Origin: Candidatus Kaiserbacteria bacterium
Lineage (GTDB): Bacteria > Patescibacteriota > Minisyncoccia > Phycocordibacterales > UBA2100
NCBI GenBank assembly: GCA_028286585.1
Contig: JAQBRI010000008.1
Coordinates: forward strand, 84,476-148,475
DNA: 64,000 bases
Direction: 5' to 3'
Each line of letters begins with the position of its first letter. Position 1 is the first letter of the stretch. Positions 3,597 to 23,310 of this stretch are shown here, piece by piece. A program made the translations under genes and the position numbers. The notes beneath the pieces are model-generated. The model ran no database searches. It saw only the letters and a list, made by a program, of their open reading frames with translations, and was not told where the DNA came from.

Positions 3597-3670
3597 TGGG
3601 AGATCGTCTAATGGTAGGACAGCAGCCTTTGAAGCTGTGAATCTTGGTTCGATCCCAAGTCTCCCAGCCA
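3597..3670 (+). tRNA. tRNA-Gln (anticodon UUG), with encoded CCA
   Basis: Manual fold: acceptor TGGGAGA/TCTCCCA, D-arm GTC-TAATGGTAG-GAC, anticodon stem GCAGC/GCTGT with loop CTTTGAA (UUG), T-arm CTTGG-TTCGATC-CCAAG, discriminator G, then CCA. Confidence 0.9.
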
Positions 3671-5359
3671 AGTTGGAACTCGATGAGGGAACGTGCCTGC
3701 AAGTCTTTCATTGAAGCCATCATTTGTAGGTTCGAGCGTCGAATGCAGTTTACGCTGCGTTTGTAATTCATTTTCTATCAATAAATACGGATGGAGCTTA
3801 TTAATCATAAGTTTTTTGTCTTTTAAGGTTAGGTTCGAGCCGATTGTCGAAAAAATACTTCGCCTCGTCTTTGTATCGCCGTTCATAAATTTCACTCGTG
3901 CCAAGTGGCAGAAATCGACGACTCGCACCGTTTCTTCAAGGGATTGCTCAAAATGATCACCTATTTCTATGATGCGCTTTTCCAGATTTCTTCGCTCTAT
4001 GGAAAGTTCATTTTTCTTAAATAGAAATTCATCAGGTGAAAATATCTCATGATTAGAATTGTGAGCAGATGTATATTCTCGCTCGAGGTTCTTAAAACGC
4101 GTTTGGCAATCTGCTAGGGCAGCATTTAGTGAATCTCGAATTTTCTTCTCATCGTTTCCATCATGTTTGCGTTTCTCTTGCAGATATTCCAGAGCAAGGT
4201 TCAGATAATCGTCGTCGATAGTAATGTCACCAAGAATGATATCAATTTGTCGTACTAGCTCGCTCTCCAGTATGCTACCTTGAGTACATTTCAAATTCTT
4301 TTTCTTTGTGCAATGGTAATACACATAATGCAAAGTCTTTGGCTCTTCCATTTTGTTTATCTTTTTACCACATTTTGGGCACTCAGTTTTATTTTTGTAT
4401 GAAAACTTGTTTTTGCAGTTCGTGCAGATCAGTTGATTTTTTATATCCACCGTGACAGATGAATCACATTCGCCACATCTTATGAGGCCTGTATATGAAG
4501 ATTCGTGTACGCGGCCTCTATGCTTTGATTTATTGCCAAGTAAGATTTGGATACGCAGAAACTCAGCTTCGGTAATCATTGGCATATGGTTACCTTTGTG
4601 AAGTTCACGCACGCTAGTTTCAGAATTTTTCCATTCGAAGTAGCCGTAATAGAACGGATTATTTAAAATTTGATATAAGTTGCTGAATACCAGTGGGCGA
4701 CCGCCAGATTTTTTCTTGTGCATAGTTCGGTACCCCCATTGGTTATTCATGATATCCAAAAGTTTAATGCCAGAGTATTCCCCAGTGAGATATAAACTAA
4801 ACATGCTACGAATTAAATCGAAACGCTCAGGATCGGGAATAATGGTGCGATTACCTTGCTCTCCGGTAAGTAAGTAGCCCGGAGCTGTTATACCAGGTCG
4901 CCAGCCATGCATAACACGGCTCTGTAGGCCACGTTTAACATTCTTCGACAGTCTCATCACATAATCCGTCGCACGACCTCCTTCGATGCTCATTAGTAAG
5001 CCTGCGTCCTCTGGGTAATATGCACGCCCTGGAGTCTTAATAACTTTAATCACACTTTTCTGTAGCATCCACTGGAGTTGTCCGTTGTCTATCGGATTAC
5101 GAGATAAACGATCGATGTCCCAGCATATTAATGCATTTGCTTCTCCTTTCTCAATACGACGTAACATTTCATTGAATATAGGTCGCCCTGGATCTTTTGC
5201 GCTGCGCACCTCAGTAAATGGAGTATTGACTAATGTGATACATTCACGCTCTGCCAGTGTTTGCAGAGCATGCACCTGGTCGCCAATGGATGCTATTTGT
5301 CGTTGTGAATCCTCGGAACTTTTTCGACAGTATGCAAAGTATTTTAATGAGGATTCCAT
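3608..5359 (-). CDS. Large serine recombinase (integrase). Its C-terminal ~20 codons are read antisense through tRNA-Gln.
   Basis: The resolvase-type catalytic domain has 'YCRKSSEDS' and 'DRLSRN'. A recombinase domain, a Cys-rich zinc ribbon (CGECDSS...CTNCKNK...CPKCGKK) and a coiled-coil tail follow; 583 aa. Confidence 0.85.
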   Translation of the reverse strand: MESSLKYFAYCRKSSEDSQRQIASIGDQVHALQTLAERECITLVNTPFTEVRSAKDPGRPIFNEMLRRIEKGEANALICWDIDRLSRNPIDNGQLQWMLQKSVIKVIKTPGRAYYPEDAGLLMSIEGGRATDYVMRLSKNVKRGLQSRVMHGWRPGITAPGYLLTGEQGNRTIIPDPERFDLIRSMFSLYLTGEYSGIKLLDIMNNQWGYRTMHKKKSGGRPLVFSNLYQILNNPFYYGYFEWKNSETSVRELHKGNHMPMITEAEFLRIQILLGNKSKHRGRVHESSYTGLIRCGECDSSVTVDIKNQLICTNCKNKFSYKNKTECPKCGKKINKMEEPKTLHYVYYHCTKKKNLKCTQGSILESELVRQIDIILGDITIDDDYLNLALEYLQEKRKHDGNDEKKIRDSLNAALADCQTRFKNLEREYTSAHNSNHEIFSPDEFLFKKNELSIERRNLEKRIIEIGDHFEQSLEETVRVVDFCHLARVKFMNGDTKTRRSIFSTIGSNLTLKDKKLMINKLHPYLLIENELQTQRKLHSTLEPTNDGFNERLAGTFPHRVPTWLGDLGSNQDSQLQRLLSYH

Positions 5360-5491: not shown

Positions 5492-7543
5492 CTAAAAGTC
5501 ATCTAATAGTTTTTGCAATTCATCAGGCTCTACAAGCTCGGGTCGTGGTGATACTTCATTTTGCATAAAGTATTCATCTCTTTTCCCTTTTTTTCTTTTT
5601 CCAATGATATTGGAAGTAAGTAAGCTTTTTAAGGCGTCCTGAACATTACGTTGCCCAATTTGCTTATTGGATTGACAAATACGTTTAATATCCGGAGTCG
5701 TTTGTGGTCCTTCAATAAGAATACTTGGAATGTATTCAATCGCCTCACTAATTTTAGATTCCTTTTCTTCAATTTCTCCATTGTAAATCAACGAAGTCTT
5801 TCGCTGAATTTGGCTTTCATCATCAACCATATCGACCTTAAAAGGTTCAATTTCCTTGTCTAAACGATTTTTTCGTTGATAGATAGTAATGCTGTCATTT
5901 GTTTTCTTCATCATTAACAATATATCTACGCTTGCTGCTTTATCTTGACTACCCAGGAGGTGTTCCTTTTTCGGGACGCCCCCATCGAATCTTTCCGGTT
6001 TGCGTAAATGGTCAAGCCAAATGAAGCACACATTATTTTCTCTCATCTTTTTATAACGGTTAAAGAATTTTCTGATTTCTTCGGCTTTTTGTTCTTCCAA
6101 ACCACCTGCAACAGCACGAAATGTATCAATTATGACAACATCTATTTTTTGATTATGTATCGTCTCAATCAATTCTTTTGCCCAGGCATCATCATTTAGA
6201 TTAATATCATCGGCAGGTAGAAAGATTAGGTTGTCTGAGTCTGTCATACCAAGCTGTCTGCCGCGACTTTGAATTTGCCGTTTGCCGTTTTCTGCATCTA
6301 CGTACAGCACTCGACCTTGCTGGGTTGGATATTTTTCTTCACCAAATAAAGGGGCACCGCTTGATATACATTTTGCAAATTCCATAGCCATCCAGGTCTT
6401 ACCTTCACCTGAGATTGAGGCGAGAATCACTATACCTGCTTTTGGAATAAGGTTCGGGATGCGCCATCGATTTGAAGGGAATTCAAGGGCATCGAGCTCA
6501 CTCCATCGCATCGTGCATATTTTTTTCGTTTTTTCTTCAATATCTGGCTTTTTTTCAGCAAAATTATTTCTTTTCGACTGATCTGGATACTTATTGCATA
6601 ACCACTTATAGGCCTCCTTGTTATCAATTTTAAGTGTTTCGGCAACATAAGTAATGGCATTACCTTTTGCCGGAAAGTCACTACTCGTTGTTGCAATGTA
6701 ATTTCCATCACCTTGGCGGCCTTTAAATGTAGCAGTAGTAACACCATCTATAACAAGATGCCCCTGTTTATTAAACTCGGCCTTTTTCCCAAGTTCTGCC
6801 CATACATCAATTGCGGTTTGTTGAATATCGAAACCCTCACGATCCGCGCTAGCTTCAGTGTTCTTCTGACTAACAGGCTCTTCTGCTTTAGATTGCGATG
6901 GAGTATAGGGAAAGTATTGTTCGAGTTCAGTAATCGTATATGTTTTCCCGTTACCATTTTCCTCAGTGATTAAATAAGGTTCAGATTTGTTGTGATAATA
7001 TCCTGGTTTTCTCAACACACGCGTTACGTCCTTTACAGGATCGCCTTTTGAACCATATTTTATTGACCATTGTATTACACCATTTACCACGTTCTTATAT
7101 CGCTCCTGAGTATGTGTATCAATTTTGTCTTCGTTCAACCACCAGAGTGGTTGTAGGCCATTTTTAGTTATAATCCACACTGAAGGTGAGCAGTGAGCTG
7201 TAAATGCCATTTTAAGGTCAGTCTTGCGACTTTCACGATCCGACTCACTAATTTTTTCGTCGTCCTTGCATACATCAAGATCAGCAAAAACTGCATTCAA
7301 TTTCGTTAAAAATTCTTTGTTACGCTTTGTTTTAGCACCAGATTCTCTTAATTGCTCATGTGTAGCAAAAAAAGAATTTGCTGTCTCAAAGATTCCATAA
7401 CCCTGTGCATTTATGGCCTTAAGTTTATCTTCATGAGGATTTTCAAGTGTAATAGGTATTTTTACCTTGTCTTTATCACTGAAACAAACGACTAGTCGTA
7501 TACCTTGGGTCTCGATTGCTTGAATCGAGCTATTAGTTTCCAT
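5492..7543 (-). CDS. Replication protein of the element: an N-terminal primase-like domain fused to a RepA/DnaB-family P-loop ATPase (helicase-like)
   Basis: The C-terminal half has Walker A 'ASISGEGKTWMAMEFA', Walker B 'VVIIDTF' and 'LDHLRK', as in AAA_25/RepA-like replicative ATPases. The N-terminal ~320 aa resemble phage/plasmid primase N-domains. Total 683 aa. Confidence 0.65.
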   Translation of the reverse strand: METNSSIQAIETQGIRLVVCFSDKDKVKIPITLENPHEDKLKAINAQGYGIFETANSFFATHEQLRESGAKTKRNKEFLTKLNAVFADLDVCKDDEKISESDRESRKTDLKMAFTAHCSPSVWIITKNGLQPLWWLNEDKIDTHTQERYKNVVNGVIQWSIKYGSKGDPVKDVTRVLRKPGYYHNKSEPYLITEENGNGKTYTITELEQYFPYTPSQSKAEEPVSQKNTEASADREGFDIQQTAIDVWAELGKKAEFNKQGHLVIDGVTTATFKGRQGDGNYIATTSSDFPAKGNAITYVAETLKIDNKEAYKWLCNKYPDQSKRNNFAEKKPDIEEKTKKICTMRWSELDALEFPSNRWRIPNLIPKAGIVILASISGEGKTWMAMEFAKCISSGAPLFGEEKYPTQQGRVLYVDAENGKRQIQSRGRQLGMTDSDNLIFLPADDINLNDDAWAKELIETIHNQKIDVVIIDTFRAVAGGLEEQKAEEIRKFFNRYKKMRENNVCFIWLDHLRKPERFDGGVPKKEHLLGSQDKAASVDILLMMKKTNDSITIYQRKNRLDKEIEPFKVDMVDDESQIQRKTSLIYNGEIEEKESKISEAIEYIPSILIEGPQTTPDIKRICQSNKQIGQRNVQDALKSLLTSNIIGKRKKGKRDEYFMQNEVSPRPELVEPDELQKLLDDF

Positions 7544-7883: not shown

Positions 7884-8233
7884 TCTTCGAGAAGTCGGGT
7901 TTGGCATAAATGCCGCCGCCTGTATTCTCTGCTTTCCTAATAACAATATCACATAATATAAGTATGTAAAATTTGATACGTGTATAAGTAAAAAAATGTG
8001 CTTTTGTCATAAATTGTGTAAAATGTATATACACAACCAATATCGAGCCGAAAGGCAAGTGCCTAAACTATCGAGTAATCGATGGCATGGTGCAAAATCG
8101 CGACAAATGTAGAAAACCCGTTATCAGGGCGTTTGTCGCGTTATGCAGGGAAACTTGCATAGGGCCGCAAGGCCTCCTGGTAGCGGGCTTTATGTTGCCC
8201 AGCTATCAGCATTATCAGTAATGCAAAAAAGCT

Positions 8234-9394
8234 ATGAGCAAAATACTTTCATTTCTAAATTTGATCGGCGCTTTTTTAATTTTTTTAGTATATATCGCAA
8301 TAGCACTTACGCTACTTCTTTTTATACCCACATTACTCTTTGGAGGAGGAGTTTGGTTTTATACAGATTATCTTGCGCCTCTCTTAAAATATGTAGATTA
8401 CATAGCAGCCCTACTTTCTATAATCTTTTTGTTTCTTTGCATTTTTCGCAAGTACAGAATATTCGCTGGGTCGGCTCTAGTCTATTGCTCATATGCGATC
8501 GGTGTTGACCTGTGGTTTCAGTCACTCATTAACACCTACATTTCTTTCGGTCCTGTCGGTACTATATTAGGAGTGTTTTTTCTAGGAGTTGGTGTTTTCT
8601 TTACGGGACTTGTTGCACTATTATGGGCTCACTTATTCACCGCATTTTGGTCACTTCTTGGTTCGGGCTTATACATGATTGGAATACGATGGTTTGGTTT
8701 ATATATCGCACAAAATGAGACTGATAGTCAATATGATCCAAATTTGGACGAACCCGATGAGGATGGAATTACAGAGCGAATGATTCAGAAAATGATAAGT
8801 AAAAATGGGAGCAATAAAAATGTAATAGAAGATATTAGCACGGAATATATAGAGCCAAGGCAAGAGATTGTGAAATTCGACGCAGAAGAGTATCTCTCTC
8901 TGCTGAAAATTACAGAAACATTTATTAATAGAGGGAGATCGGACGATCCACCAAGATTTGTTATTTTTATGGGAGGAGTGGGTAGCGGAAAAACGACATC
9001 ACGCAGGGTGAATTTTTCTATCAACTACGTTAATTTTGATTTTGGAGAAATCCATCTCTCGCTAGAAAAAGCATTTGGTGTGAAATTTCCTCGAATTTCG
9101 GAGTATGCCTCTTATGTAAGTGATCTTGTCTTGCGGCAAGCTCTGCAAGAAAGAAAAAAAATCGTCATTGAAATTATAGGTGATAGCTACGCTCTGATTT
9201 CTCCGGTAATTAATGCAATGAAGGGAATCGGATATGACGTCTCTATAGAAGGTATCATAGATGACACTGTTGCAAGTTACGGAAGATATATGTATGCAGT
9301 GGATAAAGATCCTGACTATATCTCGGCAGCCGATACTCAGGAATTAACACTAAGTTTTTTCCATCACTATTTCGGACTGGTACCAGCGCCATGA
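8234..9394 (+). CDS. Membrane-anchored P-loop NTPase (kinase- or zeta-toxin-like C-terminal domain)
   Basis: About five predicted TM helices in the first 160 aa. The soluble C-terminal domain has Walker A 'FMGGVGSGKTTSRR'. Confidence 0.5.
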   Translation: MSKILSFLNLIGAFLIFLVYIAIALTLLLFIPTLLFGGGVWFYTDYLAPLLKYVDYIAALLSIIFLFLCIFRKYRIFAGSALVYCSYAIGVDLWFQSLINTYISFGPVGTILGVFFLGVGVFFTGLVALLWAHLFTAFWSLLGSGLYMIGIRWFGLYIAQNETDSQYDPNLDEPDEDGITERMIQKMISKNGSNKNVIEDISTEYIEPRQEIVKFDAEEYLSLLKITETFINRGRSDDPPRFVIFMGGVGSGKTTSRRVNFSINYVNFDFGEIHLSLEKAFGVKFPRISEYASYVSDLVLRQALQERKKIVIEIIGDSYALISPVINAMKGIGYDVSIEGIIDDTVASYGRYMYAVDKDPDYISAADTQELTLSFFHHYFGLVPAP

Positions 9395-9449
9395 ACCGAA
9401 TGTCTCAGAGGGCAATAGAGTTGCGGTATTAGCGAGACAAGTAGTATAG

Positions 9450-10508
9450 TTGCCTTCATGGAACTATTGGAACAGGAGAAAAATACTGCTTATACAGTCT
9501 AGACAGAATAAAGCCCGCATGAAACTATTCTCTGAACATTTTGCAGAATTAAAAAGCGACGAACAGCTCGAGGCGCTGCATATGGAATTTCCCCAATACG
9601 ATATTGCATACTTAGTACAAGGTGCGTATGGGCTCCGAAGACACACAAAGGAGTGGATGGAAAGCATGTGGACGCTGTATGAGCCATATGCTGATCCACA
9701 TTTCCTCAAGGAGTTCAAAAGGCATTTTACGCAGCGTTCCTGGGAATTGTATTTGGGCGTGACGCTTCTCAATCATGGTTTCAAGTTAGGCGAACATAAG
9801 AGTGCCGGCGCAGACTTTGATGTGCAGGACGTAAATGGTGAACGTATTATGTGGATAGAGGCAATTGCTGTAAACCCGGGAGATGGGGCAGACAGGGTAC
9901 CAGACCATGCGTATGAAGTTGTAAGAAGTATACCTGTGGATGAAATGCTTTTGCGCGTTGCAGCTGCCTTGGACACAAAGCATAAGAAATATCTTTCTGA
10001 TGTAAAAAATGACTTTGTTGCGAAGACGGAGGCATATGTCATAGCAATCGACCGTTCTGAATTGGGTCATGTGGAAATTCCCCCATCACTCATTTTAAAA
10101 GCTCTTTTTGGTGTCGGTCACCAAACGTTGAGTTTTCCAGTACCTGCCATGGACGAGCCTTCAAGAAGCGTCGAACCAAAAAGATCTTGGGGGGCACTAC
10201 CCGAAATTTCAAAGAAAAGTGGTAATCCAGTATCTATGCGTTTTTTCGAGAATCCCGCACATGCTGGTATAAGTGCTGTAATTTATTCCGTGCCGCATGT
10301 AATTAATAGTCCGCGTCTGCCGGATGAGATGGGTGAGCATTTCTACGTTGTCCATAATCCGCACGCTATAAATCCAATCCCCTTTGGCGTATTGCCATTT
10401 GGTGAAGAGTATCGAGTTGATGAGGATGTAATAAACATTATACGAGAAAGGATGGCATATCAATCACCTGATCCTTTTGAATACCTTGCGACTTCCAACG
10501 AAGAATAA
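9450..10508 (+). CDS. Hypothetical protein
   Basis: 352-aa ORF with no recognisable motif. It may contain a PD-(D/E)xK-like 'DFDVQD...IMWIEAIAV' segment, which is weak. Confidence 0.4.
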   Translation: MPSWNYWNRRKILLIQSRQNKARMKLFSEHFAELKSDEQLEALHMEFPQYDIAYLVQGAYGLRRHTKEWMESMWTLYEPYADPHFLKEFKRHFTQRSWELYLGVTLLNHGFKLGEHKSAGADFDVQDVNGERIMWIEAIAVNPGDGADRVPDHAYEVVRSIPVDEMLLRVAAALDTKHKKYLSDVKNDFVAKTEAYVIAIDRSELGHVEIPPSLILKALFGVGHQTLSFPVPAMDEPSRSVEPKRSWGALPEISKKSGNPVSMRFFENPAHAGISAVIYSVPHVINSPRLPDEMGEHFYVVHNPHAINPIPFGVLPFGEEYRVDEDVINIIRERMAYQSPDPFEYLATSNEE

Positions 10509-10509
10509 C

Positions 10510-11316
10510 TTACTTTGTAGGGTGTGCTTTCGTGATTTCACCTTTGTAGCCCAGAGAAGCAAATATTGCTTTCCAGCTCAGAAAAAGAATCTCACTCGGC
10601 GTTAAGTTCATATGCATCTGTATAACCGGATGACCAGTTGAATTTTTGATGACACTTGATTTCAAAACGATTGTGGAAGTTACTATGGAATCGAGTCCAG
10701 CAGCATGCAAAAAACCATTTCGTATTTTATCGTACAAGTCTTTAATGACATCATCTAGGTTATTTATTCTCAGATCGTCTCGCTCAGATGGTCTATAACA
10801 ACTTACAACCCTCTGCACTTCTTCTGGAGTTAGAAAGGTTGAATAAAACCATATTAGTCTTGCTCTCATGGATGGTGGGTGTTGAGCAGCATGCTCAGCA
10901 GCAAGTTTTTCAAGCGAATCGACGTTTTTAATTTCGTCAAATTTGTTTTTTAGAAAATCCACAAAACTTACACGAGGTTCCGCATGTTCTTTGGTAAATT
11001 TATCCACGATGGAAAACATCACGGCGATTGCTATGTTTGACCAGGCCATGTCCGCAAACATTTCGGGAAGGGTGCGACGTTTTCCTTCTTCTTCAACCAA
11101 TAGAACAGAAACGGACTCCATAATAACCTTGAAAAAAATAAGTAACATCCCAAGTGAGATGATTTCTTCAGATTTCAATTGTGATAGAAAAATATGTAGT
11201 TCTTTCTCGTTTTTGAAATCCATGGCCCAGCCATTTCCAAAACATTTGCTTCCTGGACCTAAAATTTCTAAGATTTGAGCAACCCGCTCTTTAATTGTTG
11301 GTACATCACCTATCAT
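10510..11316 (-). CDS. Hypothetical protein with a HEPN-like Rx4H motif (Abi-like candidate)
   Basis: The 268-aa alpha-helical protein carries 'RNGFLHAAG' (R-x4-H) in its C-terminal third, as in HEPN/AbiD-F-type RNases. Confidence 0.4.
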   Translation of the reverse strand: MIGDVPTIKERVAQILEILGPGSKCFGNGWAMDFKNEKELHIFLSQLKSEEIISLGMLLIFFKVIMESVSVLLVEEEGKRRTLPEMFADMAWSNIAIAVMFSIVDKFTKEHAEPRVSFVDFLKNKFDEIKNVDSLEKLAAEHAAQHPPSMRARLIWFYSTFLTPEEVQRVVSCYRPSERDDLRINNLDDVIKDLYDKIRNGFLHAAGLDSIVTSTIVLKSSVIKNSTGHPVIQMHMNLTPSEILFLSWKAIFASLGYKGEITKAHPTK

Positions 11317-11819: not shown

Positions 11820-12440
11820 ATGAGCTGGATATCAAACAATATTATTGGAATTATAGGAATTGTCGTAGGCGGTTTTATTGCATACCATGTATATTTTTTG
11901 TCTCTGCAGCTCAACTTGAAGGACAAACTCGTATACAAAGACAGTGTGCGAAAGAAAGTTGAACCCTTATTGGCCAGAATAAATAATGGTATTAGTAGTA
12001 AATGCGAACTAGTCAACGTTAAGAAGTATTTGAAATACTATCCGCACAATAATGACTTGAATAAAGATGGCTACACATATCTGGGTGCAGAATTGAAAGC
12101 ATTGCAGTTTGATGGTGTTGAATTTTTTTGTGGCGTGAGAGAGCTCTTCAAAAAACCGGATGGCAGCTATACACTCAAAAAAGAGGAAAGTACAGTGCGT
12201 GAAGAGTATAATGCTCTAGAGGCGGGTGTAATCCCTTATGAGTGGATTGAATATATAGATGGCAGAGGTGATGAGTATAGTTATCGTCCGCAGTTTTTCA
12301 CCCAATTTAAGGGTGAAAGGAAGTCGCCATATAAACACCTGTCATATTACATTCAGAGTGATACGTATTACGAAGGTAGAGATCCAATGGATTTTAAGTG
12401 GCGTAGAATAGAAGTAGAACAAAATAAGTCACTAGTTTGA
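11820..12440 (+). CDS. Hypothetical membrane-anchored protein
   Basis: N-terminal TM helix followed by a 206-aa ORF. It sits 10 nt after the upstream gene. Confidence 0.4.
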   Translation: MSWISNNIIGIIGIVVGGFIAYHVYFLSLQLNLKDKLVYKDSVRKKVEPLLARINNGISSKCELVNVKKYLKYYPHNNDLNKDGYTYLGAELKALQFDGVEFFCGVRELFKKPDGSYTLKKEESTVREEYNALEAGVIPYEWIEYIDGRGDEYSYRPQFFTQFKGERKSPYKHLSYYIQSDTYYEGRDPMDFKWRRIEVEQNKSLV

Positions 12441-12938: not shown

Positions 12939-12986
12939 GGTGACCTCCTTGATGATCTGGAGAGAACTCTAACATAGTTGTAAAAA

Positions 12987-13014
12987 GGTTCCAACCTCGT
13001 CCCAGGCAGCGAGC
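12987..13014 (+). repeat. Cassette-boundary repeat, copy 1
   Basis: GGTTCCAACCTCGTCCCAGGCAGCGAGC, 20 nt upstream of the ATG at 13034. Confidence 0.6.
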
Positions 13015-13033
13015 AATCTGATATAGTTATGTC

Positions 13034-13432
13034 ATGAATCCCGATCCACGCCTACATCACACAGCAAAGCGTATACAACGAGGAAGCCTAGGGAATGTAA
13101 TCGAAATGTTTGCATTACTTGGTTGTAAAGTGTCGTATCGCCCAGAAGGCAATGGTTGGGCAATGATTGGCCAAGAGGGACTTAATTTTGATATCCAGCT
13201 CATTGAGGTAGATGGTATACCGTTAGAAGGTGAGACTCGAAGAGATTCACAAATCTCCTTTGTTTCTGAAAATCCTACTGATCATATTAATAAAGTCCAT
13301 ATATGGGCTGAAGAAAAAAACCTTACATTTATTCAAAAGTCATGGAACGAACGTGAGCATTACTTTGATTTGCCTGATCTCTTTGTTGACTGGGTTGTAG
13401 AAGTAATGCATATATCGGTTGTTGAAAGCTAA
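13034..13432 (+). CDS. Hypothetical protein (cassette gene)
   Basis: 132-aa ORF bounded by repeat copies 1 and 2. Confidence 0.4.
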   Translation: MNPDPRLHHTAKRIQRGSLGNVIEMFALLGCKVSYRPEGNGWAMIGQEGLNFDIQLIEVDGIPLEGETRRDSQISFVSENPTDHINKVHIWAEEKNLTFIQKSWNEREHYFDLPDLFVDWVVEVMHISVVES

Positions 13433-13433
13433 A

Positions 13434-13461
13434 ATTCTAACATCGTCCCATACAGCCAGCC
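13434..13461 (+). repeat. Cassette-boundary repeat, copy 2
   Basis: ATTCTAACATCGTCCCATACAGCCAGCC, starting 2 nt after the stop at 13432. Confidence 0.6.
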
Positions 13462-13485
13462 AATATTGTTTTTTTAATGTAAACT

Positions 13486-14004
13486 ATGTCGATGACACTT
13501 ATTATTATCCTGTTAATCATCATAGGGTTAGCAGTTGTATTTTCTTTAATTCAAAAGGGCGAGAATGTGGAAGTCGAGCATCCGGAAGTACATTCTATTC
13601 AAGAGCAGAAAGATCCCATGCCCTATGTAAGGAAGCAGTATTTTATGACAAATTCAGAGTTAAATTTTTTTAGAAATCTTGAAAAAATAAACCAAAATAA
13701 ATATTTTATTGTTCCTCAAGTATCGTTATCCGGACTAGTTTCAGTTGCTGATAATGAATTGATGAGAAAAACATATAACAATAAAATCGATAGAAAGTCA
13801 GTAGATTTTGTTCTATTTGATAAAGCTACTTTCCTTCCAAAATTGGTAATCGAATTAGATGATAGATCTCATGATAGATATGATAGAAAAATAAGAGATG
13901 AATGGGTCGATGATGTAATGAAGAAGGTGGGTATAAGGATAGTTCACGTCAAGGCTTCTTATTCCTACAATTTGGTGCCAATCGAAGGTCTTTTAGCTGG
14001 TTAA
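13486..14004 (+). CDS. Membrane-anchored DUF2726-like protein (PD-(D/E)xK nuclease-like fold)
   Basis: N-terminal TM helix, then 'FMTNSELNFFRNLE...FIVPQVSL...VDFVLFDK...LVIELDD', which matches the DUF2726 / restriction-endonuclease-like core. Confidence 0.5.
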   Translation: MSMTLIIILLIIIGLAVVFSLIQKGENVEVEHPEVHSIQEQKDPMPYVRKQYFMTNSELNFFRNLEKINQNKYFIVPQVSLSGLVSVADNELMRKTYNNKIDRKSVDFVLFDKATFLPKLVIELDDRSHDRYDRKIRDEWVDDVMKKVGIRIVHVKASYSYNLVPIEGLLAG

Positions 14005-14016
14005 GTATTTTAAAAT

Positions 14017-14045
14017 AGTTCCAACGTGGTCCCAGACTGTCAGCC
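14017..14045 (+). repeat. Cassette-boundary repeat, copy 3
   Basis: AGTTCCAACGTGGTCCCAGACTGTCAGCC. Confidence 0.6.
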
Positions 14046-14114
14046 CTTGACTTAAGTATTTTTGAATGGTAATTTCTTGAAAGAAGTTTCCACTCCCATA
14101 AGGAGCAATTAAAG

Positions 14115-14459
14115 ATGAAGTTCGTTTTCATAGCACATCCAATGTCGGGAGACATAGAAGGAAATATGCAGAAAGTTGTTGCTATCTGTAGAAGTATTCA
14201 TTCCGAAGAAATTATTCCCGTCTTTCCAAGTGCACTGACAAGGAGATATCTCACGCCAGATCCACGAGACCGCGCACTCGCCCAGACGATGATCGAAGAA
14301 TACTTTCGTCGAAGGATCATCGATGAAGTCTGGCTCTATGGCACTGATTTAACAGATGGCATGAAGAGAGAGGTGCGTTTTGCGGTTACCTACAACATTC
14401 CTGTTGTGGCACAGACACCTCAAATGCAACTTTCCCTCGACACATACTTAAAAGTTTGA
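14115..14459 (+). CDS. DUF4406-like (nucleoside 2-deoxyribosyltransferase-like fold) small protein
   Basis: 'MKFVFIAHPMSGD' N-terminus and 'DEVWLYG', typical of the DUF4406/NDT-like family; 114 aa. Confidence 0.4.
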   Translation: MKFVFIAHPMSGDIEGNMQKVVAICRSIHSEEIIPVFPSALTRRYLTPDPRDRALAQTMIEEYFRRRIIDEVWLYGTDLTDGMKREVRFAVTYNIPVVAQTPQMQLSLDTYLKV

Positions 14460-14526
14460 CATCACCTTCGTTTGTATTAAAAACCCTCCGGTCTACATTG
14501 ACGGCGGGTTTTCATTTATCCAAAAA

Positions 14527-14554
14527 GGTTCCAACATCGTCCCAGATTGCAAGC
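14527..14554 (+). repeat. Cassette-boundary repeat, copy 4
   Basis: GGTTCCAACATCGTCCCAGATTGCAAGC. Confidence 0.6.
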
Positions 14555-14612
14555 TAGACGTGTTATTGCAAACGTGGTATTGTTTTGTTCAGAACACAGG
14601 AGGAGAGAGATT

Positions 14613-15032
14613 ATGTCTCAAAATGTTCGCTCGTACTGCGACGCGATTTTCGCGTCAATTCCGACGACCACGATCGAAGTCAAGACTATCGAAGGCACCA
14701 AACGCTTTGTCTTTGGTTTGGTTCAAAGTCAAACGTTGTGCGGCGACGATCTGGGAACATACAACAACTACCAAATCGTCGAGATACGAAGAAGGGGCGA
14801 GGCATCGACGGCAATACTCTCTCTTCAAATGGACACGCGACAATGTGGGCCGACACAAGTCTACATTCGCGGTGAGGCTGCCAAAGATTGGTTTGCTGCG
14901 TCTTCAAAGTGGTTTCCAATCCTTGAAATAACAGCAGATATGTTCGAGGAAGGTGATACACTGATCGTTCCTGTTGCGATCGAGTTTCTCGCACGACTGG
15001 TTCTTTATCGCATCCGAAAACAGGCCTCATAA
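14613..15032 (+). CDS. Hypothetical protein (cassette gene)
   Basis: 'AGGAGGAGAGAGATT' RBS precedes the ATG at 14613. The track ORF starts upstream at 14547 without an RBS. Confidence 0.45.
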   Translation: MSQNVRSYCDAIFASIPTTTIEVKTIEGTKRFVFGLVQSQTLCGDDLGTYNNYQIVEIRRRGEASTAILSLQMDTRQCGPTQVYIRGEAAKDWFAASSKWFPILEITADMFEEGDTLIVPVAIEFLARLVLYRIRKQAS

Positions 15033-15053
15033 ACTTGAGTACACGAAAATCAA

Positions 15054-15092
15054 AAAGGCCGCCTCACCAGTATTGGTTTGGGCGGCTTTTCA
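15054..15092 (+). terminator. Rho-independent terminator after the 14613-15032 gene
   Basis: GGCCGCC...GGCGGC stem followed by TTTTC. Confidence 0.4.
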
Positions 15093-15102
15093 TATGGCAA
15101 AA

Positions 15103-15129
15103 ATTCCAACATCGTCCCAGACTGCCAGC
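15103..15129 (+). repeat. Cassette-boundary repeat, copy 5
   Basis: ATTCCAACATCGTCCCAGACTGCCAGC, the closest match to the consensus. Confidence 0.6.
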
Positions 15130-15190
15130 AGGCATTTTTTAAAAAGAAAACGCCCCCGAAAGAGAGCGTCTCCGTCGGCGGGCAGTTTAG

Positions 15191-15559
15191 TTAGGGTCGT
15201 AAGTACAAATTTCTGTCCTTGAGTCGTTTACATATTGCGCCAATAATATATGAGCTAAAACCGGCTGCGTGTAGGTCAGACCGGGTCTTTTTCAACAGGT
15301 CGCTCACAGTCACAATATTGTTTTGTTCAAGCTTATTGGTTGTAGTTATGCTCAGATCAAGTACATGCACTCCTTCATTGGTCATCGCATCTTCAACATG
15401 CTCGTCAGGAAGAATATCACTGGCCTCGCTTAGTAGTGCTTGGTAGACTTGAAATGCTTCAAGCGTCATTGAATTGCGAAGATGGCCGACTAACCGGCAT
15501 GCTATACACGGCTCAAGCGGCATACAGCCTGCTCGATGGTCAAGAACTAGCACTTTCAT
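15191..15559 (-). CDS. Small protein with an RNA polymerase alpha-subunit C-terminal-domain-like (HhH) domain
   Basis: The C-terminus 'LDLSITTTNKLEQNNIVTVSDLLKKTRSDLHAAGFSSYIIGAICKRLKD' aligns with alpha-CTD '[48 protein letters not shown]'. Start taken at MKVLVLD. Confidence 0.45.
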   Translation of the reverse strand: MKVLVLDHRAGCMPLEPCIACRLVGHLRNSMTLEAFQVYQALLSEASDILPDEHVEDAMTNEGVHVLDLSITTTNKLEQNNIVTVSDLLKKTRSDLHAAGFSSYIIGAICKRLKDRNLYLRP

Positions 15560-15620
15560 GTCATGACTCCCTAAAGGTTCTTTTATATTTATTGCATGAT
15601 AAAAACATTTTGTCAAATAA

Positions 15621-15647
15621 ATTCCAACATTGTCCCATGTTGTAGCC
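15621..15647 (+). repeat. Cassette-boundary repeat, copy 6
   Basis: ATTCCAACATTGTCCCATGTTGTAGCC, lying between two minus-strand genes but still in + orientation. Confidence 0.55.
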
Positions 15648-20888: not shown

Positions 20889-20926
20889 AAAGCCGAACAC
20901 CCCTCTCGGGTAAGTAGGCTTTTTTC
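20889..20926 (+). terminator. Terminator-like repeat element, copy 1 (AAAGCCGAACACCCCTCTCGGGTAAGTAGGCTTTTTT)
   Basis: Outer stem AAAGCC/GGCTTT enclosing inner stem ACCC/GGGT, followed by a T-run. Confidence 0.5.
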
Positions 20927-20961
20927 ATTTTAAATATTATTTATACTGATATACTTACTAG

Positions 20962-21342
20962 ATGAAACTCGATGCAATTGGGGTTGTGAGCAAAGATATT
21001 AAAAAGTCGGTAGCGTTTTATAAGCTGCTTGGTTTTGAATTTGGCGAAGTACCAGACGATGCAATGCATATTGAGGCCAAGCGCCAAAATGATTCTGTAC
21101 GATTCATGATTGATAATTATGAAATGATTAAGGAACATACGGGTATCGATACAGAGCCGTCAAACATGTCTTCGTTTGCAATCTTGTGCGACAATCCAGC
21201 AGATGTTGATTCTGCGGTACAAAAAATAAAAGACGCAGGCTACACAATTGCCAAGGAGCCATGGGATGCGATGTGGGGTCAGCGATATGCCGTTGTGATT
21301 GACCCGGACGGCTACGGAGTCGACTTGTTTGCCACACTCTAA
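20962..21342 (+). CDS. VOC / glyoxalase-bleomycin-resistance family protein
   Basis: The 126-aa protein has a 'MKLDAIGVVSKDIKKSVAFYKLLGF' beta-alpha-beta-beta-beta module. Confidence 0.65.
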   Translation: MKLDAIGVVSKDIKKSVAFYKLLGFEFGEVPDDAMHIEAKRQNDSVRFMIDNYEMIKEHTGIDTEPSNMSSFAILCDNPADVDSAVQKIKDAGYTIAKEPWDAMWGQRYAVVIDPDGYGVDLFATL

Positions 21343-21408
21343 AATATAAAAATACCCAGGCCTTTAAACTCGTTTTACAAACGACACAGGGCACTGTAGA
21401 GTTTAAAA

Positions 21409-22269
21409 ATGAACAGTCTACTAAAGAAATGCCACTCTTTAATAGCCTCTATTGCTGCAATAAAATGGCAGTCACTCGATTTAAAGTTTCTCATAGAGGA
21501 ACTTTTTTTCTTTACTCTTAAAGAATTGCGTGCCGTTTTATTTCCCGGGCTATTTCTTTTGCTGCTACTTATATCAAATTATGTTTTGGTAGGTAACATT
21601 TATAGATATGATTTTCTCTTTGTGGGTGCAGTGCTAATACAAGTTGTGCTACTTGTTTTAAAACTTGAAACCGTAGACGAGGCAAAAACTATATTTTTAT
21701 TTCACATAGTCGGCCTGTGTCTCGAAATCTATAAGACAAATCCAGCAATAGGTTCATGGTCGTATCCAGAACCAGGCTATCTTAAAATTGCCGGCGTGCC
21801 CTTGTATAGCGGATTTATGTACGCGGCAGTTGGTAGTTATATTGCTCAAGCATGGAAGTCTCTACATCTAAGACTTTCTGTTCATCCATCATATTCGATA
21901 AGTATTATTTTATGTATTTTGATATATCTTAATTTTTTTACTAATCATTTTATATATGACTATAGAATGTTTCTTTTTGCAGCCATATTTGTACTCTATT
22001 ATCGAACGAATATTTATTTCACTCCGCGCAAGAGGGAATACAGAATGCCTTTAATTGTCGGCTTCTTACTCATTGCTTTTTTTGTTTGGATCGCAGAAAA
22101 TATTGCTACTTTTTATGGAGCGTGGAAGTATCCAAGCCAAATTCATGCGTGGGAAGTCGTGGGCTTTCAAAAGATTACTTCTTGGTTTTTGCTGGTAATA
22201 ATATGCTTTATCATCGTTGCATATCTCAAACATTTTAAACAAAGTCGTGCTATAAAAGTAAAAGAATGA
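21409..22269 (+). CDS. Polytopic integral membrane protein (DUF817-like)
   Basis: About 8 TM helices; 286 aa. Confidence 0.5.
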   Translation: MNSLLKKCHSLIASIAAIKWQSLDLKFLIEELFFFTLKELRAVLFPGLFLLLLLISNYVLVGNIYRYDFLFVGAVLIQVVLLVLKLETVDEAKTIFLFHIVGLCLEIYKTNPAIGSWSYPEPGYLKIAGVPLYSGFMYAAVGSYIAQAWKSLHLRLSVHPSYSISIILCILIYLNFFTNHFIYDYRMFLFAAIFVLYYRTNIYFTPRKREYRMPLIVGFLLIAFFVWIAENIATFYGAWKYPSQIHAWEVVGFQKITSWFLLVIICFIIVAYLKHFKQSRAIKVKE

Positions 22270-22281
22270 CAAATCGCTGTT

Positions 22282-22313
22282 CAATAGACAGGAGGTAAAA
22301 TAGTGGTAAGCTG
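22282..22313 (+). repeat. Conserved leader CAATAGACAGGAGGTAAAATAGTGGTAAGCTG, copy A
   Basis: Identical 32-mer also present at 22767-22798. Confidence 0.5.
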
Positions 22314-22345
22314 TTTTTAGCTGCTGATAACGTGGGAAGATAGAA

Positions 22346-22684
22346 ATGCAAATCGATCCAAAAGCTGCACTAATGGCAATCGCCATATGCATACTAATGT
22401 ATATTCTGTCATCTTCTTTAGGCTTCAGGGAGGCAAGGCAAGAACTTAAAATCTTGAGAGTGTTATCAAAAAAAGGGCGGGCAAAGAGTCATGAGATTAT
22501 AAACATCGACCGTAAGATTGGATCTATTGCAATTTATGCTCGTCTCACAAGAATGGAGCAATACGGATTTATAGCTGGAGAAGGTCCATCCAAACCCACG
22601 CAATCTCGCGATCCTACAAAAATATGGTGGATCACAATGCGCGGAGCTACGAGACTAAAATATCTGGAAAAGAATTATAGATAG
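22346..22684 (+). CDS. Membrane-anchored winged-helix (PadR/MarR-like) small protein, paralog A
   Basis: TM helix, then 'QELKILRVLSKKG...W.ITM.G..RLKYLE'. Paralogous to 22831-23172. Confidence 0.5.
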   Translation: MQIDPKAALMAIAICILMYILSSSLGFREARQELKILRVLSKKGRAKSHEIINIDRKIGSIAIYARLTRMEQYGFIAGEGPSKPTQSRDPTKIWWITMRGATRLKYLEKNYR

Positions 22685-22729
22685 CATTCGCTGATACTTA
22701 TCATATATGTGATCGTCAAGAGTTCATTT

Positions 22730-22766
22730 AAAGCCGAACACCCGCTCTGGGTAAGTAGGCTTTTTT
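22730..22766 (+). terminator. Terminator-like repeat element, copy 2
   Basis: AAAGCCGAACACCCGCTCTGGGTAAGTAGGCTTTTTT. Confidence 0.5.
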
Positions 22767-22798
22767 CAATAGACAGGAGGTAAAATAGTGGTAAGCTG
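22767..22798 (+). repeat. Conserved leader, copy B
   Basis: Identical to the 32-mer at 22282. Confidence 0.5.
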
Positions 22799-22830
22799 CC
22801 CTCAGTCGCCAATAACTCAGGGAGATAGAA

Positions 22831-23172
22831 ATGTCATTTTATCTTGGAATGGGATTCGTGATGATTGTAATAGTCGTCGCGATACTTGTTTGGCTTTCCT
22901 TGTTACATTCTCGGGAGCAAAAGCAGGAACTCAAGATTCTGGCATTGTTGTCAGACCTTGGTCGGCTTAACGGCCTCGAAATGTTTGAGTATGACAACTC
23001 CATTAGTCCTTCGAATCTCTACAAACGTTTATTAAGATTAGAGCAGGACGGAGTTATTTGCGGAGAGAATTTTGTCCACTTACCGGGAACTGCTCTGCCT
23101 GTTAAAAGGAAATTCTGGATTACTATGAAGGGAAACTCCAGGCTTAAGTATCTGGAACTGAACTTTAAGTGA
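22831..23172 (+). CDS. Membrane-anchored winged-helix small protein, paralog B
   Basis: TM helix, then 'QELKILALLSDLG...FWITMKGNSRLKYLE'. Confidence 0.5.
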   Translation: MSFYLGMGFVMIVIVVAILVWLSLLHSREQKQELKILALLSDLGRLNGLEMFEYDNSISPSNLYKRLLRLEQDGVICGENFVHLPGTALPVKRKFWITMKGNSRLKYLELNFK

Positions 23173-23213
23173 CATACGCAGTATACTTATCGCGAATAGG
23201 CGATAAGCTGATT

Positions 23214-23255
23214 GAAAGCCGAACACCCCTCTCGGGTAAGTAGGCTTTTTCTTTT
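23214..23255 (+). terminator. Terminator-like repeat element, copy 3
   Basis: AAAGCCGAACACCCCTCTCGGGTAAGTAGGCTTTTTC. Confidence 0.5.
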
Positions 23256-23310
23256 TATAATTTAAACATGGCCTACCTGTATAAAATTTAATTCATGCTA
23301 CAATTTTGGC

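What the first reader, a model, noticed from the sequence alone, without database searches (positions are those of the whole stretch)
8234..11316. Three-gene cargo block in island 1: a membrane-anchored P-loop NTPase, an unknown 352-aa protein and a HEPN-like Rx4H protein. It is a candidate defence or abortive-infection module.
Seen in sequence: 8234-9394 encodes about 5 TM helices fused to a Walker A (GGVGSGKTT) domain. 10510-11316 (minus strand) carries 'RNGFLHAAG', an R-x4-H motif placed like the catalytic motif of HEPN RNases (AbiD/F, LsoA and similar). Established knowledge: HEPN and P-loop/membrane effectors are common in defence islands of mobile elements. The assignment rests on short motifs only.
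Basis: inference. Interest (0 to 1): 0.5.

Follow-up and report, generated by a model that had tools for sequence, protein, structure and literature searches.

The report
Nuclease and toxin cargo in CPR island
Three neighbouring genes in a mobile island of a tiny uncultured bacterium (Candidatus Kaiserbacteria) encode a membrane-anchored zeta-toxin-like kinase, a DNA-nuclease-type protein related to two known E. coli anti-phage proteins, and a member of a previously unnamed HEPN (RNase-type) family. They look like defence or conflict cargo, but not like one conserved three-gene machine.

Summary
In detail: all three ORFs, the Walker A motif and RNGFLH are where stated. The middle gene most likely starts at ATG 9519 (329 aa, not 352).

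- B, the "unknown" gene, has a PD-(D/E)xK nuclease fold. It and all 46 relatives tested match the PADLOC models PD-T7-5 and PD-T7-1.
- A joins a 5-segment membrane module, shared with proteins that have other C-termini, to a zeta/PezT-like P-loop kinase. Soluble relatives of that kinase pair with or are fused to an HD_4 hydrolase.

The trio is not a conserved module. A is never found with B or C elsewhere. B's tightly coupled neighbours vary (HNH, MutH-like plus methylase, several unrelated RNxxxH proteins). B-C adjacency recurs only once, with B degraded.

Outside the stated coordinates, an Rfam LOOT RNA lies 58 nt upstream of A and recurs in related islands.

Verdict: plausible defence/conflict cargo of a serine-recombinase island; new variants of known kinds; no function was tested.

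The parts
3597..3670 (+). tRNA-Gln (UUG), the probable integration site at the left edge of the island.
   Evidence: Found by ARAGORN and Rfam tRNA at 62.4 bits. The 3' end of the recombinase ORF overlaps it in antisense.
3608..5359 (-). Large serine recombinase (583 aa), the island's integrase.
   Evidence: Pfam Resolvase 4.6e-17, Recombinase 4.3e-9 and Zn_ribbon_recom. Homologous recombinases lie next to B relatives in L004, L008, L012 and other loci.
5492..7543 (-). AAA_25 (RepA/DnaB-like) ATPase of 683 aa, the probable replication or mobilisation protein of the island.
   Evidence: Pfam AAA_25 1.8e-30.
8060..8175 (+). LOOT RNA (Rfam RF03000), 58 nt upstream of the ATG of gene A; probably a leader of the rightward cargo transcript.
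   Evidence: Full-length match at 84.4 bits against a gathering score of 46.4. The 8030-8235 region folds with z = -6.3. The same RNA lies 48 nt upstream of P0080, a homologue of A's membrane module, in L096.
8234..9394 (+). Gene A (386 aa). Residues 1 to about 170 form an N-terminal membrane module with 4-6 hydrophobic segments. After a linker, residues from about 205 to 386 form a zeta/PezT-like P-loop kinase domain. Key motifs: Walker A 247-255 (nt 8972-8998), FDFGE 268-272, Walker B-like VIEIIGD 311-317.
   Evidence: Translation and hydropathy. P0079, P0080 and P0084 share only the membrane module; P0081-P0091 share only the kinase domain. Ten of 14 family members hit Pfam Zeta_toxin, best E 9.3e-10. 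The domain profile hits PezT 2p5t_B at E 1.1e-3 and zeta 1gvn_B at E 0.09. A itself has no Pfam or PADLOC hit.
9519..10508 (+). Gene B (329 aa), a PD-(D/E)xK-fold nuclease-type protein of the PD-T7-5/PD-T7-1 superfamily. Conserved E76 (invariant), D99 in GADF/GPDF (at least 90% conserved), E114 in WIEA (invariant) and K154 (invariant). The motif region spans nt 9807-9869.
10510..11316 (-). Gene C (268 aa), a member of an unannotated HEPN-like family. R199-x4-H204 lies at nt 10705-10722. C is convergent with B, and their stop codons are 1 nt apart.

Best explanation
The block is accessory 'conflict' cargo at the recombinase-proximal end of an integrative island. The island carries a large serine recombinase and an AAA_25 ATPase and sits at tRNA-Gln in a Candidatus Kaiserbacteria (Patescibacteria) genome. 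It holds three separately evolving effector-type genes, not one three-gene machine.

Gene B
- Shown: B has a PD-(D/E)xK fold and is homologous to the PADLOC families built on the E. coli anti-phage proteins PD-T7-5 and PD-T7-1.
- Inferred: B cuts DNA, either invading DNA or the cell's own DNA after infection, using E76, D99 and E114 for metal binding and K154 in place of the canonical lysine.

Gene C
- Shown: C belongs to a new HEPN-like family.
- Inferred: like other HEPN RNases, it dimerises so that two R-x4-H motifs form one active site, and it cleaves RNA when activated, which stops growth (abortive infection or toxin-like action).

B and C together
- They may cooperate as a DNase plus RNase pair.
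- Shown: proteins carrying RNxxxH are over-represented directly next to B relatives, and the convergent B-C arrangement is kept in the only other close C locus.
- This link is not obligatory.

Gene A
- Shown: A is a polymorphic membrane protein. A conserved membrane module carries a zeta/PezT-like kinase domain.
- Inferred: the kinase phosphorylates a nucleotide-type metabolite such as a UDP-sugar or NAD-like compound, acting as a toxin or effector at the membrane.

LOOT RNA
- Shown by position only: a LOOT RNA sits just upstream of A.
- Inferred: it is a leader element of the A(-B) transcript.
For: Source organism and island setting.

Gene B:
- PADLOC hits for B and for all 47 aligned relatives.
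- Conserved E76, D99, E114, K154.
- A review lists PD-T7-1 and PD-T7-5 under PD(D/E)XK nucleases (PMC10952713). They were validated in E. coli (PMC9519451).
- B relatives sit beside serine recombinases, N6_N4 methylases, MutH-like and HNH nucleases, SLFN_AlbA_2 and DarT.

Gene C:
- 32 relatives and an invariant R-x4-H.
- Model pLDDT 89.9.

B-C link:
- L001 keeps a C homologue (64% identity) convergent to a 65-aa remnant of B's C-terminus.
- 7 of 66 gene families lying within 300 nt of B relatives carry RNxxxH, against 4 of 233 farther away (Fisher p = 0.003).
- These include a 324-aa family 4 nt downstream of B in about 10 loci.

Gene A:
- Domain dissection, Zeta_toxin hits in relatives and a PezT profile hit.
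- Relatives form Zeta plus HD_4 operons beside EcoRI_methylase and GmrSD.

LOOT RNA.
Against: - No activity of any of the three proteins was tested.
- PD-T7-5 and PD-T7-1 have no published mechanism that I could find.
- A itself does not reach any Pfam threshold, and no antitoxin or HD partner is present.
- With an odd number of membrane segments, the kinase domain could be predicted to lie outside the cell, which would be incompatible with ATP use. The topology is unresolved.
- The RNxxxH enrichment comes from metagenome loci. Among 20 loci from species-representative genomes, no neighbour of B carried RNxxxH.
- None of the other RNxxxH neighbour families could be shown to be HEPN. hhalign found no relation to C, and there is only a sub-threshold HEPN_Apea hit for one of them.
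- Patescibacteria phages and hosts are uncultured, so 'defence' rests on homology and context.
Confidence: 0.6

Rival explanations
1. One cooperative three-gene defence or abortive-infection system. The membrane kinase A senses or executes at the membrane, and B and C act as its nuclease effectors.
For: The three genes are contiguous in island cargo. A and B are on the same strand, 124 nt apart, with no predicted terminator between them. A zeta-like 483-aa protein also occurs about 5.4 kb from a B relative in L004-L006.
Against: In about 170 B-relative loci and in the A- and C-relative loci examined, the trio never recurs. HMM searches with the C and A-kinase profiles over loci L102-L122 gave no hits. 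A's kinase relatives have their own partner, HD_4. C is convergent to B rather than co-transcribed with it.
Confidence: 0.08
2. B and C form an obligatory two-gene DNase plus HEPN RNase system, and A is unrelated cargo.
For: The convergent B-C geometry, with stops 1-2 nt apart, is conserved in L001. RNxxxH proteins of at least 5 unrelated families are enriched directly next to B relatives. In L023 the order is methylase, MutH-like nuclease, B, then a 324-aa RNxxxH protein, with overlapping or abutting genes.
Against: In L001 the B copy is a 65-aa remnant while C is intact, so C appears to persist without B. Other C-family members (L013, L099, L100) have no B relative nearby. Most B relatives have a non-HEPN neighbour or no conserved neighbour. 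The HEPN nature of the other RNxxxH neighbours is unproven.
Confidence: 0.22
3. These are addiction or stabilisation modules (toxin-antitoxin-like) that keep the island in the genome, or weapons used between competing mobile elements, rather than anti-phage defence.
For: Zeta/PezT kinases and HEPN proteins are classical toxin-antitoxin toxins (established knowledge; PezT and HEPN-toxin hits). The block lies next to the island's recombinase and replication genes. A structured RNA (LOOT) lies just upstream of A and of small hydrophobic ORFs elsewhere, which resembles the structured 5' UTRs of type I toxin mRNAs (inference).
Against: No antitoxin-like partner (epsilon/PezA, MNT, HD_4) is visible beside A or C. 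B's only database matches are the PADLOC PD-T7-5 and PD-T7-1 models, which come from anti-phage proteins selected by phage challenge. Toxin-antitoxin and defence roles are not mutually exclusive.
Confidence: 0.15
4. These are ordinary housekeeping genes or annotation noise: B is a repair or restriction-modification nuclease, A is a metabolic kinase, and C is a helical protein with a chance R-x4-H.
For: A, B and C have no Pfam hit. R-x4-H alone is common by chance. Some distant B relatives lie within restriction-modification operons.
Against: R199 and H204 are two of the only three invariant residues in the C family, and the fold matches HEPN proteins. A's relatives are zeta-toxin-like, not metabolic kinases. 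All three families are patchy and occur in mobile, variable contexts.
Confidence: 0.04

Closest known systems
PD-T7-5 and PD-T7-1, E. coli anti-phage proteins (Vassallo et al. 2022, PMC9519451; PADLOC models PDLC04110 and PDLC04073)
   Same: B and all 46 relatives tested match both HMMs. The match covers B residues 59-258, which corresponds to profile positions 43-234 of 346 for PD-T7-5. Both are listed as PD-(D/E)xK nuclease proteins. Both occur in mobile-element or defence contexts. Distant B relatives (24-34% identity) occur in Proteus, Yersinia and Mixta, which bridges the Patescibacteria and enterobacterial groups.
   Different: The match covers only part of the profile, at about 60 bits. 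B comes from Patescibacteria and has its own N-terminal helical region and C-terminal beta-rich region. B relatives are usually tightly coupled to a second, variable gene. From memory, PD-T7-5 and PD-T7-1 are single-gene systems. Their mechanism is unknown, so 'works like' cannot be specified further.
HEPN superfamily RNases: HEPN toxins of HEPN-MNT systems, AbiV, AbiD/F, Csm6, Cas13 and Las1 (Anantharaman et al. 2013, cited)
   Same: C has a mainly helical fold whose best structural matches are HEPN proteins. It has an invariant R-x4-H with a small polar residue (N or S, rarely L) after the arginine. It sits in a mobile-island context.
Zeta/PezT toxin kinases of epsilon-zeta and PezAT toxin-antitoxin systems (Pfam PF06414)
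   Same: A has Walker A GGVGSGKTT. An Asp eleven residues after the end of the Walker A segment (FDFGE) aligns with the IIDGD motif of PezT. A has a Walker B-like hhhhE-hh-GD. The family profile hits PezT and zeta, and relatives hit PF06414.
   Different: A is fused to an N-terminal multi-span membrane module. It has no epsilon/PezA antitoxin. Soluble relatives are paired or fused with an HD_4 hydrolase instead. A itself is below every Pfam threshold. Its substrate is unknown.
HEPN or Abi genes embedded in restriction-modification loci (PrrC with EcoprrI, RloC; 'RM+Abi' PD-lambda-5 in Vassallo et al. 2022)
   Same: In several loci, B relatives sit in a run of methylase, restriction nuclease, B and an RNxxxH protein. 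This echoes the pairing of a DNA-targeting first line of defence with an RNase back-up.
   Different: No methylase was found next to B in this window. The partner proteins share nothing detectable with PrrC or RloC. The comparison rests on architecture only and on my recollection of those systems.
LOOT RNA motif (Rfam RF03000; Weinberg et al. 2017, PMC5737381)
   Same: Full-length match well above the gathering score.
   Different: Rfam types it as an sRNA gene. Here and in 9 related loci it lies in island DNA. In 8 of 10 cases it is 45-64 nt upstream of an ORF, which suggests a cis-acting leader. From memory, the motif had no assigned organism when it was described.

Membership tests
HEPN superfamily (gene C) | Conserved R-x4-6-H motif, usually with a polar residue after the arginine. 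| tested here: met
   R199 and H204 are invariant in 25 aligned members. The residue after R is N or S in all but one.
HEPN superfamily (gene C) | All-alpha helical-bundle HEPN fold. | tested here: met
HEPN superfamily (gene C) | Match to a curated HEPN sequence family (for example Abi_2/AbiD-F, HEPN_Apea, HEPN toxin). | tested here: not met
   No Pfam, NCBIfam, PADLOC or PDB sequence hit for C or for any of 25 family members.
HEPN superfamily (gene C) | Metal-independent RNase activity that depends on the R and H residues. | not testable with these tools
   Needs biochemistry.
HEPN-MNT type II/VII toxin-antitoxin (gene C) | Adjacent minimal nucleotidyltransferase (MNT) antitoxin. | tested here: not met
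   C's neighbours in the window are B (convergent) and ORFs of 137 and 206 aa with no Pfam hit. C-family neighbours elsewhere are GNAT, DUF4238 and unknown proteins.
PD-T7-5 / PD-T7-1 family (gene B) | Significant match to the PADLOC family HMMs. | tested here: met
   PD-T7-5 at E 1.5e-17 (61.8 bits) and PD-T7-1 at E 3.9e-13. All 47 relatives hit both models, with best values of 2.5e-27 and 1.5e-21. The match covers about 55% of the PD-T7-5 profile.
PD-T7-5 / PD-T7-1 family (gene B) | Confers phage resistance as a stand-alone gene. | not testable with these tools
   Needs expression and phage challenge. The context is ambiguous, because B relatives are usually tightly coupled to a second, variable gene.
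PD-(D/E)xK nuclease superfamily (gene B) | Restriction-endonuclease-like alpha-beta-beta-beta-alpha-beta core fold. | tested here: met
PD-(D/E)xK nuclease superfamily (gene B) | Catalytic signature (E)...PD...(D/E)-x-K. | tested here: inconclusive
   E76 and E114 (WIEA) are invariant, and D99 (G[PA]DF) is at least 90% conserved. The canonical lysine position is I or V. An invariant K154 on the next helix might substitute for it. I could not check the spatial clustering of these residues.
Zeta/PezT toxin kinases (gene A, C-terminal domain) | Walker A P-loop followed by a catalytic Asp, then a Walker B-like strand. | tested here: met
   GGVGSGKTT at 247-255, FDFGE at 268-272 (aligned to IIDGD of PezT) and VIEIIGD at 311-317.
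Zeta/PezT toxin kinases (gene A, C-terminal domain) | Match to Pfam Zeta_toxin (PF06414) at or above threshold. | tested here: inconclusive
   A itself gives no hit at E <= 1. Ten of 14 homologues (42-51% identity to A over the domain) do hit, best E 9.3e-10. The family profile hits PezT at E 1.1e-3.
Zeta/PezT toxin kinases (gene A, C-terminal domain) | Cognate epsilon/PezA-type antitoxin gene immediately upstream. | tested here: not met
   Upstream lies a 690-nt intergenic region carrying the LOOT RNA, with no antitoxin ORF. Relatives pair with HD_4 instead.
Zeta/PezT toxin kinases (gene A, C-terminal domain) | Phosphorylation of UDP-GlcNAc or another nucleotide substrate. | not testable with these tools
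   Needs biochemistry.
LOOT RNA (Rfam RF03000), upstream element | Covariance-model score at or above the gathering threshold over the full model. | tested here: met
   84.4 bits against 46.4, covering model positions 1-121 of 121.

The most novel reading that the evidence does not exclude
B-family PD-(D/E)xK proteins may be the constant half of a modular two-nuclease defence system, common in Patescibacteria islands. The second half would be interchangeable: at least five unrelated RNxxxH/HEPN-like families including C, two HNH families, and a MutH-like nuclease with a methylase. In addition, the orphan LOOT RNA may be a cis-acting leader that controls the membrane-protein or toxin genes (such as A) at the start of the cargo of these serine-recombinase islands.
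Probability: 0.2. Interest if true: 0.7.

Novelty: new variant of a known kind. Interest (0 to 1): 0.45.

Why it matters
Patescibacteria (CPR) are ultra-small, mostly uncultured episymbionts, and little is known about their immunity and mobile elements. This block gives three concrete, testable candidates:
- a PD-T7-5/PD-T7-1 relative, which extends that experimentally found but mechanistically unknown family far beyond Enterobacteria;
- a HEPN-like family absent from Pfam and PADLOC, so current defence finders would miss it;
- a membrane-anchored zeta-like kinase whose soluble relatives pair with an HD_4 hydrolase, which hints at a reversible nucleotide-phosphorylation toxin system.

The recurrent coupling of B relatives to varied second nucleases suggests a modular architecture worth testing.

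The side finding is that LOOT RNA, an orphan Rfam motif, sits in these islands at a fixed distance upstream of mostly membrane-protein ORFs. This gives the RNA a taxonomic home and a testable role.

Tried and rejected
- Pfam, NCBIfam and PDB sequence searches gave nothing useful for any of the three proteins. NCBIfam hits such as Ffh, FlhF and RegB were far below their cut-offs and I dismissed them.
- The word-index homologue search found only one relative of C. The exhaustive HMMER search was needed to find the family.
- Profile-profile comparison of the C family with the other RNxxxH neighbour families (324-aa, 188-202-aa, 261-aa) found no relationship. I therefore do not claim they are homologues of C, or that they are HEPN.
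- The search for related loci could not use the C alignment because it has no conserved 7-10-column stretch.
- tblastn of C and of A's kinase domain against phage records, and of C against plasmid records, found nothing. B found only distant hypothetical proteins on plasmids and none in phages.
- I found no direct repeat of the tRNA-Gln marking the far end of the island. Pfam on ORFs up to about 20 kb did not define the right boundary either.
- I considered AbiD/F and LsoA membership for C and rejected it for lack of any sequence match.
- I considered an SRP/FlhF-type GTPase for A and rejected it (14 bits against cut-offs of 174-473).
- I considered LOOT as an RNA antitoxin for A. I think this unlikely, because the genes downstream of LOOT differ widely between loci.
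Full report
OBSERVATION

The three ORFs are real and at the stated coordinates.
- A (8234-9394, +, 386 aa) starts with about 160 very hydrophobic residues, with Kyte-Doolittle 19-mer peaks of 2.4-3.0 in 4-6 segments. It carries GGVGSGKTT at residues 247-255.
- C (10510-11316, -, 268 aa) carries RNGFLH at residues 199-204.
- The middle ORF was read from a TTG at 9450 (352 aa). All 75 homologues are about 278-331 aa, and the identical deposited protein is 329 aa. The gene therefore most likely starts at ATG 9519.
- The deposited proteins name the source as a Candidatus Kaiserbacteria MAG (locus tags JWO50_576 to _578, on a 149-kb contig).

SETTING

To the left lie core genes (Dus and a DNA polymerase III clamp-loader subunit). 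Next come tRNA-Gln (3597-3670), a 583-aa large serine recombinase whose 3' end overlaps the tRNA in antisense, and a 683-aa AAA_25 ATPase. A 690-nt intergenic region follows, then A and B on the + strand, then C convergent to B.

The stop codons of B and C are 1 nt apart, with no terminator predicted between them. GC content dips to 0.36-0.43 across the region. This fits cargo of an integrative island. I could not define the island's right end.

GENE B

B has no Pfam hit, but PADLOC gives PD-T7-5 (E 1.5e-17, 61.8 bits) and PD-T7-1 (E 3.9e-13). All 47 aligned family members hit both models, with best values of 2.5e-27 and 1.5e-21. These models derive from E. coli proteins selected for phage resistance (PMC9519451). 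A review lists both under PD-(D/E)xK nucleases (PMC10952713).

The family alignment has invariant E76 and E114 (WIEA), D99 (G[PA]DF) conserved in at least 90% of members, and invariant R146 and K154. This is a PD...E-x-K signature without the canonical lysine.

Close relatives are mostly in Patescibacteria MAGs. Distant ones (24-34% identity) reach Alphaproteobacteria, Proteus, Yersinia and Mixta, plus a few plasmids and viral contigs. One of these lies next to DarT in a phage-plasmid.

GENE C

The word-index search found one relative (64% identity). The exhaustive HMMER search found 32. In 25 aligned members (21-62% identity) the only invariant columns are R199, H204 and W248. None of the 25 members hits Pfam or PADLOC meaningfully, and the profile finds nothing in PDB sequences.

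I conclude that C belongs to a new HEPN-like family. The fold evidence is moderate and the motif evidence is strong.

GENE A

The alignment of A's homologues shows that A is a fusion of two modules.
- Residues 1 to about 170 are shared with P0079, P0080 and P0084, which carry other or no C-terminal domains.
- Residues from about 205 to 386 are shared with soluble proteins P0081-P0091.

Ten of 14 family members hit Pfam Zeta_toxin (best E 9.3e-10), and three also carry HD_4. A profile of the domain hits PezT (E 1.1e-3) and zeta (E 0.09). In that alignment, the FDFGE Asp of A pairs with IIDGD of PezT.

The soluble relatives form a Zeta (268 aa) plus HD_4 (181 aa) operon. In L093 this operon lies beside an EcoRI-type methylase and a GmrSD/HNH protein. 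A itself has neither an HD partner nor an epsilon-type antitoxin.

IS IT ONE MODULE?

I examined about 170 B-relative loci.
- The closest B relatives (77-78% identity) have unrelated neighbours.
- Clustering the neighbours shows that B relatives are usually tightly coupled (overlapping or less than 12 nt apart) to one further gene, and that gene varies. The variants are:
  - a 324-aa protein with conserved ARNRLxHFG, immediately downstream (about 10 loci);
  - HNH_5 proteins of 203-221 or 340 aa, upstream (about 12 loci);
  - a 249-aa or a 274-aa unknown protein, upstream;
  - a MutH-like nuclease preceded by an N6_N4 methylase;
  - a 261-aa protein with IRNGLAH.
- Large serine recombinases lie convergent just downstream of B in 8 loci.
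- Seven of 66 gene families within 300 nt of B relatives carry RNxxxH, against a rough chance expectation of 0.8. Farther away the figure is 4 of 233 (Fisher p = 0.003).
- None of these RNxxxH families is detectably related to C.
- The enrichment was not seen in 20 loci from species-representative genomes.
- The C-family HMM finds a neighbour of B only in the window and in L001. In L001 the C homologue is convergent to a 65-aa remnant of B's C-terminus.
- Other C-family loci have no B relative and no constant partner.
- A relatives never adjoin B or C relatives.

I therefore read the block as three independent cargo genes, with a possible but non-obligatory functional link between B and C.

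MECHANISM (INFERRED)

- B probably acts as a metal-dependent DNase of the PD-T7-5/PD-T7-1 type.
- C probably acts as a dimeric HEPN RNase that causes growth arrest on activation.
- A probably acts as a membrane-tethered zeta-like kinase that modifies a nucleotide-type metabolite.

None of this was tested. A's topology is unresolved: an odd number of membrane spans would put the kinase domain outside the cell.

LOOT RNA

Rfam finds a full-length LOOT RNA (RF03000) at 8060-8175 (+), scoring 84.4 bits against a threshold of 46.4, 58 nt before A's ATG. Scanning about 393 kb of related loci found nine more. One lies 48 nt upstream of P0080, the homologue of A's membrane module, in L096.

In 8 of the 10 cases an ORF starts 45-64 nt downstream. 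Six of those eight ORFs encode proteins with a strongly hydrophobic segment. Serine recombinases are nearby in three loci.

LOOT is thus a recurrent feature of these islands, and its position suggests a leader element. I include it as a likely part of A's transcription unit. Its function is unknown.

NOVELTY AND SCORE

Each gene is a new variant of a known kind:
- B is a distant PD-T7-5/PD-T7-1 relative.
- C is an unannotated HEPN-like family.
- A is a new membrane-fused architecture of a zeta-like kinase.

The three-gene-module idea is not supported. Interest is moderate at 0.45. Defence-type cargo in a mobile island is expected, but the CPR host, the profile-less HEPN family, the modular partners of B and the LOOT context are all worth following up.

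Noticed in passing
window 8060-8175 (+); also L012 9194-9315, L096 4838-4952, L007 3406-3528, L099 7794-7914, L100 898-1015, L035 342-459, L018 7642-7768, L044 1243-1367, L102 4036-4153 (-): Full-length Rfam LOOT RNA (RF03000, 74-92 bits against a threshold of 46.4) recurs in these Patescibacteria-type island loci: 10 copies in about 457 kb scanned. In 8 of 10 cases an ORF starts 45-64 nt downstream, and 6 of those ORFs encode proteins with a transmembrane-like segment. These include gene A and P0080, the homologue of A's membrane module. A serine recombinase is nearby in 3 loci. This suggests a cis-acting leader rather than a free-standing sRNA.
   Followed up: partly
window 12982-15647: Six copies of a roughly 27-33-nt conserved box (consensus AAAAAGTTCCAACATCGTCCCAGACTGCCAGC) are spaced 446-584 nt apart. 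Each interval holds one small ORF (for example DUF2726 at 13486-14004 and DUF7768 at 14115-14459). Some boxes are preceded by a terminator-like hairpin. This looks like a cassette array or a repeated promoter or operator. Its function is unknown.
   Followed up: partly
window 20889-23261: Three copies of a 47-nt terminator-like repeat (AAAGCCGAACACCCCTCTCGGGTAAGTAGGCTTTTTT...) lie at 20889, 22730 and 23215. A 69-nt repeat lies at 22280 and 22765.
   Followed up: no
window 3597-3670 and 3608-5359: The last ~20 codons and the stop codon of the large serine recombinase gene are antisense to tRNA-Gln (63 nt of overlap). The island seems to supply most of the tRNA gene it is inserted in. I found no second partial tRNA copy or long direct repeat marking the other island end.
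   Followed up: partly
L092 1024-2377; L093 512-4187; L094; L095: Soluble relatives of A's kinase domain form a conserved two-gene operon: Zeta_toxin (268 aa) plus HD_4 hydrolase (181 aa), which are fused in P0090 and P0091. In L093 the operon lies directly after an HTH protein, an EcoRI-type methylase and a GmrSD_N/HNH protein. It may be an undescribed kinase/hydrolase toxin-antitoxin or defence pair.
   Followed up: partly
L023 439-3801; L020 380-2788; L027 4365-6942: Some B relatives are the third gene of abutting operons. One form is N6_N4 DNA methylase, MutH-like nuclease, B, then a 324-aa ARNRLxHFG protein. Another is methylase, a 274-aa unknown protein, then B. These are restriction-modification-like loci extended by B and sometimes by an RNxxxH protein.
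   Followed up: partly
L001 1211-1408 (-) and 1518-1592 (-): In the only close C-homologue locus, B is reduced to a 65-aa C-terminal remnant next to a tRNA-Glu, while C is intact. This looks like a decayed or truncated copy of a related island.
   Followed up: yes
window 8234-8740 (A residues 1 to about 170); P0079, P0080, P0084: A's membrane module (46-59% identical in three other proteins) carries different C-terminal ends: none, a Cys-rich zinc-ribbon-like tail, or an unknown 200-aa domain. This is a polymorphic 'membrane anchor plus variable head' family.
   Followed up: partly
window 11820-12440 (+): A 206-aa ORF just beyond C gives a weak PADLOC PtuB hit (E 0.0035) and no Pfam hit. It may be further defence-type cargo.
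   Followed up: no
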